Shown: piece after piece, positions 1 through 29,777 of the stretch
Layout: each line of letters begins with the position of its first letter
Position numbering within the stretch: the first letter of the stretch is position 1
Source: Eledone cirrhosa
Taxonomy: Eukaryota
Length of the DNA stretch: 32,104 nt
Reading direction: 5' to 3'
NCBI GenBank assembly: GCA_964016885.1
Contig: CAXHJY010000638.1
Location: 1-32,104, forward strand
Notes under the pieces: model-generated
The model's database searches: none
Told to the model about the DNA's origin: nothing
The model's input: only the letters and a program-made list of their open reading frames with translations
Translations under genes and position numbers: made by a program

Positions 1-8132
<8,132 letters not shown>

Positions 8133-11698: not shown

Positions 11699-12080
11699 GT
11701 TGTGTGCGTTCGTGTGGGTACACAGCTGTGTCGGAATTAAGTTTAGTTACTATTTCCAAGGTGAGATGTCATGTACAGATGAATAAGTAAATTGAAGCTA
11801 ATCCGCCCACCTTCAGAGGCGTAGACTCTCTATATTTTCACCTAGTTTAAATTCCTACAGAGAGCGGAAGAAGCGCTGACCTGATGAGGGCCAGATCTAG
11901 TGATGTGTTCGCAGTTGTCCCCCACTACTCCTGCTGGAATCCTCTAGATGGCAGTTTCCGTTATCTTTTCTGTATTCATCGCTTGTGGGGGCTTTCCAAA
12001 TGCTTATTCGTAAACAAACCGTATATCATTAGATATACGAAATCCCCCCCACGTACACACGCGCATACATTCACGTACAA

Positions 12081-12286: not shown

Positions 12287-12324
<38 letters not shown>

Positions 12325-12433
12325 TGAGTAATATTAAATATTACTCAGTTACAAGTATGAATATACCTCGATGTAATATACAGAGTATACAATGTAACGT
12401 ATAATTAAATTGTATTTAATCTTTCAAACATTT

Positions 12434-12486
12434 GATAACTAAAGATGGTTTCATCCTAGCACAAGGTAGGAATCTTCAGATTTAGT
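12434..12486 (-). ncRNA. Degenerate minimal type I hammerhead ribozyme motif, copy A
   Basis: Minus strand reads CTGAAGA-t-tcctacc-ttgt-gctagga-t-GAAA-c-catc-ttt-agttat. The CUGANGA and GAAA boxes are intact around stem II. Stems I and III are mutated. Confidence 0.55.
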
Positions 12487-12553
12487 ACAAGAGTAAAACA
12501 GAACTAGACATCACGAACATCTGGGGCATCCTATATTTGTATTTAACTATTGT

Positions 12554-12606
12554 AATTACTCTGAAAAAACCCCACTTGTGGTAGGATGAAACGGTCGTTA
12601 GTTATT
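12554..12606 (+). ncRNA. Degenerate minimal type I hammerhead ribozyme motif, copy B
   Basis: aattact-CTGAAAA-...ttgt-ggtagga-t-GAAA-C-ggtc-GT-T-agttatt. Stem I and the near-palindromic stem III (acggtcgt) are present. Core G8 is changed to A. Confidence 0.55.
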
Positions 12607-12650
12607 AAATGTTTGAAAGATTAAATACTCTTTGATTATTATTTACATTG

Positions 12651-12682
<32 letters not shown>

Positions 12683-12705
12683 TTATATTTGTATTTAACT
12701 ATTGT

Positions 12706-12757
12706 AATAACTCTGAAAATTCCCACTTTTGCTAGGATGAAACGGACGTTAGTCATT
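12706..12757 (+). ncRNA. Degenerate minimal type I hammerhead ribozyme motif, copy C
   Basis: aataact-CTGAAAA-ttccc...ctaggat-GAAA-C-ggac-GT-T-agtcatt. Core G8 is changed to A. Confidence 0.5.
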
Positions 12758-12799
12758 AAATGTTTGAAAGATTAAATACTGTTTGATTATTATTTGCAT

Positions 12800-12861
<62 letters not shown>

Positions 12862-17769: not shown

Positions 17770-17935
17770 AGTTACGTCCGTTTACGTTCTCAGTTCAAAT
17801 TCCGACGAAGTTAGCTTTGCCTTGCTTCATTACGGGATCGAAAATATAAAATACCAGTAATGCACTGGGGTCGTATTAATCAAATATCCCCTCCTCCCAA
17901 ATATTGTTGAAATTTTGCCTAGATCAGAATCCTTT
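17770..17935 (+). mobile_element. Degenerate SINE, same family as 21836-22020 (Meta-domain-like core)
   Basis: B-box-like agttcaaattccg, then ttcat..acgggatcgaaaatataaaataccagtaatgcactgg. Aligns with 21900-21985. Confidence 0.8.
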
Positions 17936-21630: not shown

Positions 21631-21835
21631 TCTGCTGGTTGAGTCTCTCTTTTTCGGATATTAGCGTTTGCATATTCTCTATATCTTCTCCTTTGTCTTA
21701 TCCAATCGTTCTGGTGGCCTATACAATATATTTTCAGATGCGATCATGGGTTACGGGCAAATTTGCACTTATTTGTAAATTGTAGGTAAGGCTACCGTCT
21801 TGTATTTTATGCATTCGTTACTATGATATATGCAT

Positions 21836-22020
21836 GGGTTGGCAGTATCGGTAGAGGGTCGGATGCCATGCTTTGCAGCAAAGAGTTACAGCCCTTTATG
21901 GTCTGAGTTCAAATCCCGCGGAGGTTAACCCTGTCTTTCATCCTTACGGGATCATAAAATAAGTACCAGTAATACACTGGAATAATTGCTGGCCCTGTGC
22001 CAAAAGTAGAAACAATTATT
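21836..22020 (+). mobile_element. tRNA-derived SINE (Meta-domain-like core)
   Basis: A-box-like tggcagtatcgg, B-box-like gagttcaaatccc, core ctttcatccttacgggatcataaaataagtaccag, and tail aattgctggccctgtgccaaaagtagaaacaattatt. Confidence 0.85.
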
Positions 22021-29390: not shown

Positions 29391-29460
29391 TGTGAATGAA
29401 GTAATTCCATCGGAAAAGTCCAGGAAAAAAGAGTGCTCTATGTAAGCAACAGAGCTTAAT

Positions 29461-29644
29461 TATTATTATTATGTAATAAACAACATAAGGCAATTATTCC
29501 ATTTACCAGTGGTTTTTAGAATCCATATTCAATAAACAAACCAGGATTTTTCATTCTGAGGATTGAAAGCAAAACCTTTTGCTTTTAAGAAACCACTGGT
29601 AAATGGAATAATTGCCTTATGTTGTTTATTACATAATAATAATA
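29461..29644. mobile_element. 184 bp MITE with perfect 55 bp terminal inverted repeats
   Basis: 29461-29515 (tattattattatgtaataaacaacataaggcaattattccatttaccagtggttt) is the exact reverse complement of 29590-29644. The spacer is 74 bp. Confidence 0.85.
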
Positions 29645-29777
29645 TATATAGAATATATATAGAATATATATATATATAGAATATATATATATATATAGAA
29701 TATATATATATAGAGAGAGAATATATATATATAGAATAAATATATATATATATATAGAATATATATATATAGAGAGA

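What the first reader, a model, noticed from the sequence alone, without database searches (positions are those of the whole stretch)
12387..12802. Hammerhead-ribozyme-bearing repeat in inverted plus tandem arrangement, with (TA)n as part of the monomer
Seen: three copies of one unit. Their composite consensus is AATAACT-CTGAAGA-T-TCCTACC-TTGT-GGTAGGA-T-GAAA-C-(G/C)(G/A)TC-GT-T-AGTTATT. This gives a 7 bp stem I, CUGANGA, a 7 bp stem II, GAAA, a short near-palindromic stem III and a GUU cleavage triplet. Known: minimal type I hammerheads with a palindromic stem III mark Penelope-like element pseudo-LTRs and metazoan non-LTR retrozymes, and are thought to cleave as dimers. Inference: this is a relic of a self-cleaving retroelement. 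The ~152 bp period, with a TA tract after each copy, suggests it either targets or carries and seeds (TA)n, which could link it to the TA arrays here. Each copy has a disabling change (G8A in B and C, stem III in A), so these particular copies are probably inactive.
Basis: partly seen in the sequence, partly recalled or inferred. Interest (0 to 1): 0.75.

Follow-up and report, generated by a model that had tools for sequence, protein, structure and literature searches.

The report
Hydra-clade Penelope retrotransposon end relics
The three repeats are broken leftovers of the ribozyme-bearing end of a known kind of jumping gene (a Hydra-type Penelope element), which likely landed in a TA repeat as a mirror-image pair and was likely part-duplicated later; the only fresh hint is that related copies often stop where the ribozyme would cut.

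Summary
The three copies are real, and each has a damaged minimal type I hammerhead. They are not a 152-bp monomer. They are truncated 3' ends of a dispersed Penelope-like retrotransposon family. Of 20 loci picked by its GIY-YIG region, 14 carry this hammerhead downstream, and the ORF has the Hydra-clade motifs. Stems covary across sister families. A and B form one two-armed insertion in (TA)n: genome-wide, 59 of 61 scorable inverted pairs have the tail on exactly one arm and none on both. C shares four derived changes with B and is the only such tandem in 251 clusters, so it is probably a later local duplication. TA is mainly the target. All this matches published Hydra-clade anatomy, and the scan noted the same layout on other DNA. 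Two leads remain. First, 10 of 45 hand-curated 5' ends fall at the predicted cleavage site, which may record cut RNA being copied in vivo; polymerase stalling is a real rival. Second, three bases after the ribozyme core are hypervariable even between sister arms.

The parts
12290..12322 (.). (TA)n tract at the outer end of arm A; left remnant of the likely target site
12321..12389 (-).
12321..12506 (-). Arm A: 5'-truncated 3' end of the element, with tail, 89% identical to the family majority
12434..12487 (-). Hammerhead of A: core boxes intact, stem III palindrome broken, one stem I pair broken
12507..12527 (.). Junction between the two arms (filler, perhaps in part a decayed extension of A)
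12528..12653 (+). Arm B: 5'-truncated 3' end without tail, 93% identical to the family majority
12553..12606 (+). Hammerhead of B: G8A and damaged stem II; predicted cut site between 12599 and 12600
12651..12688 (.). (TA)n tract after B; overlaps the TATA-like start of copy C
12684..12802 (+). Copy C: probable local duplicate of B (four shared derived changes incl. G8A), no tail
12803..12857 (.). (TG)n(TA)n tract at the right end; right remnant of the likely target site

Best explanation
This is a decayed insertion of the hammerhead-bearing 3' end (pseudo-LTR) of a Hydra-clade Penelope-like retrotransposon: arms A and B were likely written into both sides of one cut (TA)n tract from two fixed start sites about 85 nt apart on the element's RNA, and copy C is likely a later local duplicate of B. 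Shown: the family's layout (RT, linker, GIY-YIG, 3' UTR of over 1 kb, hammerhead, tail), the two fixed 3' end sites, the one-tail pattern, TA flanks and covariation across sister families. Inferred: two-strand nicking and double priming (by analogy with the anole element studied in vitro), duplication of B through TA microhomology, and inactivity of the three ribozymes.
For: Linkage: 14 of 20 loci chosen by the endonuclease region have this hammerhead 0.3-2.0 kb downstream on the same strand, and four (L070, L074, L076, L086) also hold RT-core pieces. The window-type subfamily is itself joined to the endonuclease in L031, L254 and L255. Clade motifs: R-W-R, DKT, CxCx5C linker, no CCHH, CxxC and CxH around E and N, as in the Hydra definition. 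Sister families show hammerhead, tail, AT-rich spacer and ATG in front of the ORF. Ends: 3' ends cluster at two sites. Of 91 adjacent divergent pairs, 61 are scorable: 59 have one tail, 0 have two, 2 have none. TA follows 97 of 147 tail-less and 125 of 174 tailed ends against 9% of random positions. Covariation in 12 copies from several families: 5 of 14 pairs change on both sides, in all three helices; 0 of 500 shuffles reach the score. B and C share 4 derived changes and A shares none; 2 of 90 other copies carry two or more of them.
Against: No intact full-length copy was seen, and none runs unbroken from ATG to hammerhead. Pfam matched none of 5 RT/linker fragments. The one weak GIY-YIG hit (E 0.005) is from a neighbouring related element, not this family. 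RT identity rests on motifs and on Atlas feature hits of 0.90-0.95. Clade placement is by motif and by eye, with no tree. Within the family there is no covariation above shuffles (71 copies) and RNAalifold predicts no structure. The 12-copy covariation set was hand-picked and the rows are related. A and B are only 80% identical, a little low for sister arms. The element (about 3.8 kb, estimated) and the tail (85 nt) are longer than published norms.
Confidence: 0.88

Rival explanations
1. A non-LTR retrozyme: a ~152-nt non-coding monomer that includes the TA tract and spreads as tandem copies through a circular RNA.
For: B-C period of 151-152 is at the low end of retrozyme monomer sizes (150-450 bp, PMC7229834 passage).
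Against: It is the only such tandem in 251 clusters. Both units have G8A. Copies are nested 5' truncations of a coding element. The TA tract differs at every locus.
Confidence: 0.03
2. Same element, but C arose during retrotransposition (re-priming or a partial tandem) instead of by later DNA duplication.
For: Partial tandems are typical of these elements (PMC8557442 passages). B and C differ at 9% of sites, so the event is old.
Against: B and C share four changes, including the ribozyme-killing one, that sister arm A lacks. C starts at a TATA-like internal word right after a TA tract.
Confidence: 0.12
3. The element carries and seeds (TA)n instead of targeting it, and so builds the TA arrays of this contig.
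For: Both 3' end sites lie at short TA-like words, and an AT-rich spacer follows the tail in the element. In L111 and L112 a long TA tract lies where the spacer would be.
Against: The first end site is followed by the tail, not TA, in the full element. TA also abuts 24 of 66 solitary 5' junctions at arbitrary positions, against 9% background. (TA)n insertion is listed for all 20 Hydra families in the supplement rows seen.
Confidence: 0.08

Closest known systems
Hydra clade of C-terminal EN+ Penelope-like elements, incl. Hydra-1_Obim of Octopus bimaculoides (Craig et al. 2021, PMC8557442; passages, section 11 and supplement rows read)
   Same: Protein motifs, hammerhead near the 3' end, (TA)n insertion, inverted 5'-truncated copy, tail on one end only.
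   Different: Hammerhead sequence differs from Hydra-1_Obim, so a different family (by eye). Estimated length about 3.8 kb with a 3' UTR of over 1 kb, against 'generally under 3 kb'. Tail about 85 nt against 30-40. R-W-R for RWK.
Minimal hammerheads of metazoan PLEs (Cervera and de la Pena 2014, PMC4209133; parts 1-2 of 4 read)
   Same: Type I, long stem II, extra base after A9, palindromic stem III, pairs 100-700 bp apart on opposite strands, many solo copies, high variability.
   Different: No G10.1-C11.1 closing pair. Many copies have U4C. Variability is concentrated in three bases after the core.
Poseidon element of Anolis carolinensis, PAc (Frangieh et al. 2024, PMC11167929; parts 1-2 of 4 read)
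   Same: Two internal start sites for reverse transcription that bound the tail; AT-rich target; both strands nicked and extended.
   Different: Other clade. There the start sites are not homologous to the target and uncut RNA is the main template; here both sites sit at TA-like words and some 5' ends lie at the predicted cut.
Metazoan non-LTR retrozymes (PMC7229834, passages; preprint 10.64898/2026.07.22.740005, part 1 of 5)
   Same: Type I hammerhead in a short, low-GC head-to-tail dimer.
   Different: Here the tandem is a single local case with two dead cores, and the family is protein-coding.

Membership tests
Hydra-clade PLE | Single ORF with RT and C-terminal GIY-YIG endonuclease, linked to this 3' end | tested here: met
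   (decayed frames in linked copies; none in the window)
Hydra-clade PLE | CxCx5C linker motif | tested here: met
Hydra-clade PLE | No CCHH motif; CxxC and CxH beside the conserved E and N | tested here: met
   translations, read by eye
Hydra-clade PLE | DKT motif and N-terminal RWK motif | tested here: met
   DKT in L110/L398 and sister families; RWK reads R-W-R
Hydra-clade PLE | Hammerhead in the pseudo-LTR and insertion into (TA)n | tested here: met
Hydra-clade PLE | Generally under 3 kb | tested here: not met
   about 2.4 kb ORF plus 1.2-1.3 kb 3' UTR, estimated from different copies; a tendency in the paper, not a strict criterion
Hydra-clade PLE | Monophyly with published Hydra RTs | not tested
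   reference proteins were seen in the supplement and compared by eye only
Minimal type I hammerhead | Core boxes, stems I and II, palindromic stem III, NUH triplet in the family | tested here: met
   45 of 90 subfamily copies keep an intact core; covariation across families
Minimal type I hammerhead | Intact motif in the three window copies | tested here: not met
Minimal type I hammerhead | Self-cleavage as dimer or with protein | not testable with these tools
   needs an assay
Non-LTR retrozyme | Two or more consecutive units with complete hammerheads; tandem arrays genome-wide | tested here: not met
   1 tandem in 251 clusters, both units G8A
Non-LTR retrozyme | Non-coding family | tested here: not met
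Non-LTR retrozyme | Expressed as small circular RNA | not testable with these tools
   no RNA holder listed

The most novel reading that the evidence does not exclude
The 5' ends of inserted arms pile up at the hammerhead cut site because ribozyme-cleaved RNA was the template in the living germ line. That would be fossil evidence that the Penelope hammerhead cuts in vivo before or during insertion, against the in vitro result that uncut RNA is the main template. The hypervariable bases after the core would be a per-copy error hot spot of the same polymerase.
Probability: 0.35. Interest if true: 0.6.

Novelty: new member of a known kind. Interest (0 to 1): 0.27.

Why it matters
As a locus it matters little: a dead fragment of a described clade. 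As a family sample it touches an open question. The role of hammerheads in Penelope-like elements is called unclear (PMC8557442), and cleavage was dispensable in vitro (PMC11167929). If the pile-up of 5' ends at the cut site holds in a full census, genomic fossils would give a cheap in vivo read-out of ribozyme activity for any family. The strict one-tail pattern also supports double priming from two fixed sites in a second clade.

Tried and rejected
Rfam scan of the window: no hammerhead family among 62 matches. Pfam on RT/linker fragments: 0 of 5. First label 'Neptune' dropped after reading the Hydra definition. Covariation within the family: none above shuffles, as expected for decaying copies. 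Search for a second genomic copy of the right flank, to find an empty or pre-duplication allele: only the window itself. Search with the 5' UTR nearest this family for a full pseudo-LTR/ORF tandem: 6 matches, whose new loci were not analysed further; such tandems were seen only in sister families. Cleavage-site pile-up in the tail-selected set alone: 1 of 100 by automatic boundary, 2 after reading junctions, about 2 expected, so no excess there. A tail-hairpin pattern found nothing and was loosened. RT or endonuclease remnants in the window: none. Literature searches for a report of 5' ends at the cut site or of twin priming in these elements gave only reviews or unrelated papers, seen as listings. 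The library lacks most subscription journals, and preprint supplements were not seen.

Full report
Observation. The window is a whole unplaced contig (G000:C665) of a 3.0-Gb genome in 1796 contigs, with TA arrays at both ends. Earlier notes call the genome octopus-type; I did not test that. The three copies are present. B and C lie head to tail, 151-152 bp apart, and A points away from B on the other strand. The stated defects are real: G8A in B and C, and a stem III in A that cannot self-pair. Three details need correcting. The perfect 7-bp stem II is a composite: the G it needs is in 5 of 87 copies. A continues 69 nt beyond 12387 into a tail that ends at the TA tract at 12322. And none of the three copies folds better than shuffles or passes a strict descriptor.

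The family. A search with B gave 315 candidates, of which 40 were scored, giving 48 matches. Short patterns gave 139, 136 and 231 matches with 0 for reversed controls, so there are at least a few hundred copies. Copies share a 3' end and are cut off at different 5' points. Upstream in L031, about 1.3 kb of AT-rich UTR (net of a later insertion) leads to a linker and GIY-YIG region. The reverse test used the best 20 of 43 listed matches to that coding region: 14 have the hammerhead downstream on the same strand, mostly in an older subfamily form, and four of them also hold RT-core pieces. The window-type subfamily is joined to the endonuclease in L031, L254 and L255. All frames are broken and no whole element was seen.

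Clade. The translated pieces show R-W-R, DKT, CxCx5C, no CCHH, and CxxC and CxH beside E and N. These are the features given for the Hydra clade in section 11 of PMC8557442, which also lists hammerheads and (TA)n insertion. The supplement lists an octopus member, Hydra-1_Obim, with a different hammerhead; its protein resembles these pieces by eye. Pfam did not recognise the RT pieces; the Atlas placed one next to RT-domain clusters. No tree was built.

Ribozyme. Among 71 copies of this family covariation does not exceed shuffles. In 12 hand-picked copies from this and sister families, 88% of cells pair and 5 of 14 pairs change on both sides, in stems I, II and the palindromic stem III; 0 of 500 shuffles reach the score and slid controls pair at 24-42%. 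One row lacked its stem I 5' strand through a coordinate slip. Relatedness inflates this test, but the core boxes are fixed while the stems change. Of 90 other copies of the subfamily, 45 keep an intact core. This fits the minimal hammerheads of PMC4209133. Cleavage was not tested. That G8A kills activity is inferred from the C3-G8 pair (G8C abolishes it in PMC11167929).

How the locus was likely made. 3' ends fall at two sites about 85 nt apart. Among 91 adjacent divergent pairs, 30 could not be scored because one arm ended elsewhere. Of the other 61, 59 have the tail on one arm, none on both, and 2 on neither, one of them a doubtful alignment. Tail-selected loci cannot lack a tail, so the absence of double tails is the informative part. 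Four near-identical duplicate loci were set aside. A with tail and B without fit this pattern. PMC11167929 shows for another clade that the protein nicks and extends both strands and starts at two internal sites that bound the tail; I infer the same here. PMC8557442 already describes the inverted copy and the one-sided tail. TA follows 66% of tail-less and 72% of tailed ends, and 24 of 66 solitary 5' junctions, against 9% of random positions in the same loci. TA is therefore mainly target, though a short TA-rich spacer follows the tail in the element. C is the only close same-strand tandem in 251 clusters and shares four derived changes with B and none with A. It starts at a TATA-like word right after a TA tract, so I read it as a later duplication.

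Lead 1: 5' ends at the cut site. I first noticed this in a set biased by the pattern used. In 100 tail-selected arms there was no excess. In a set selected by a pattern downstream of the site (89 of 100 listed places, of 231 matches), 8 of 25 starts in the test range fell in the window fixed beforehand (p 0.004). One of the 8 is a misalignment, one is doubtful and two had been seen before. Pooling by hand, I kept 45 of the 69 rows. The 24 dropped were pattern-biased, internal deletions or insertions, out of range, duplicates, misaligned, or from a sister family. Two rows were moved to the site after reading their junctions. Ten of 45 lie within 3 nt at the site (p 0.0005 for that site, 0.02 for any 3-nt window). 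Against this reading: the 7 nt just upstream hold only 1 start, so the 10-nt stretch as a whole is not enriched (11 against about 10), and the 3' edge of stem II holds 9 starts in 6 nt. Stalling at helices could give the same picture. I put cleavage at about one in three. The searches showed no paper on this.

Lead 2: hot spot. The three bases after the core differ from the majority in 46-49% and 23-39% of copies of the two subfamilies, while the opposite strand of stem II differs in 1-8%. The first two differ between arms of one insertion (12 of 20) as often as between unrelated copies (51%), whereas subfamily-diagnostic sites mostly agree (9 of 60 differ). Only 10 sister pairs were usable, and the variation rises with overall divergence in one subfamily, so a DNA-level hot spot is possible. 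Unexplained.

Earlier notes. They were consulted after my reading was fixed. The scan has recorded Hydra end pairs, the short-end/long-end rule and a tail hairpin on other DNA. I found that hairpin a few bases after the first end site in 9 of 12 loci tried, including sister families, without a covariation test.

Verdict. The 152-bp monomer idea fails. Interest is low for the locus and moderate for the cut-site lead.

Noticed in passing
window 29400-29645 (core at 29556, +): A different, intact-looking minimal hammerhead (7-bp stem I, long stem II, palindromic stem III) inside a short fold-back element between TA tracts. It passes the strict descriptor and belongs to a younger, larger family: 2094 candidates, top copies 88-98% identical over the whole 246 bp. 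The fixed size suggests a non-autonomous element.
   Followed up: partly
window 27374 (-) with 28949 (+), and 24709 (-) with 25522 (+): Two more outward-pointing pairs of hammerhead-like cores from other families.
   Followed up: no
window 11860-11960 (core box at 11881, +); also 8318 (-), 8882 (-), 13055 (-): Further core-box matches; the one at 11881 has no GAAA box close downstream and could be of the rearranged kind named in earlier notes.
   Followed up: no
L119, L126, L127, L130, L134, L135, L136, about 200-300 nt before the ORF: Sister Hydra families keep hammerhead, tail, AT-rich spacer and start codon in order, with U4C cores.
   Followed up: partly
L031:7164-7355 and 7768-8097; window 17770-17869 and 21835-22018: A ~190-bp SINE-like repeat, with a target-site duplication in L031, sits inside several copies of this element and twice in the window.
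   Followed up: no
L034:6194-9313: An intact 1040-aa endonuclease plus RT open frame of an unrelated LINE.
   Followed up: no
L107, L108, L109 (G000:C1, 149.87-149.93 Mb): Three near-identical copies of a long Hydra remnant about 32 kb apart: a segmental tandem repeat.
   Followed up: no
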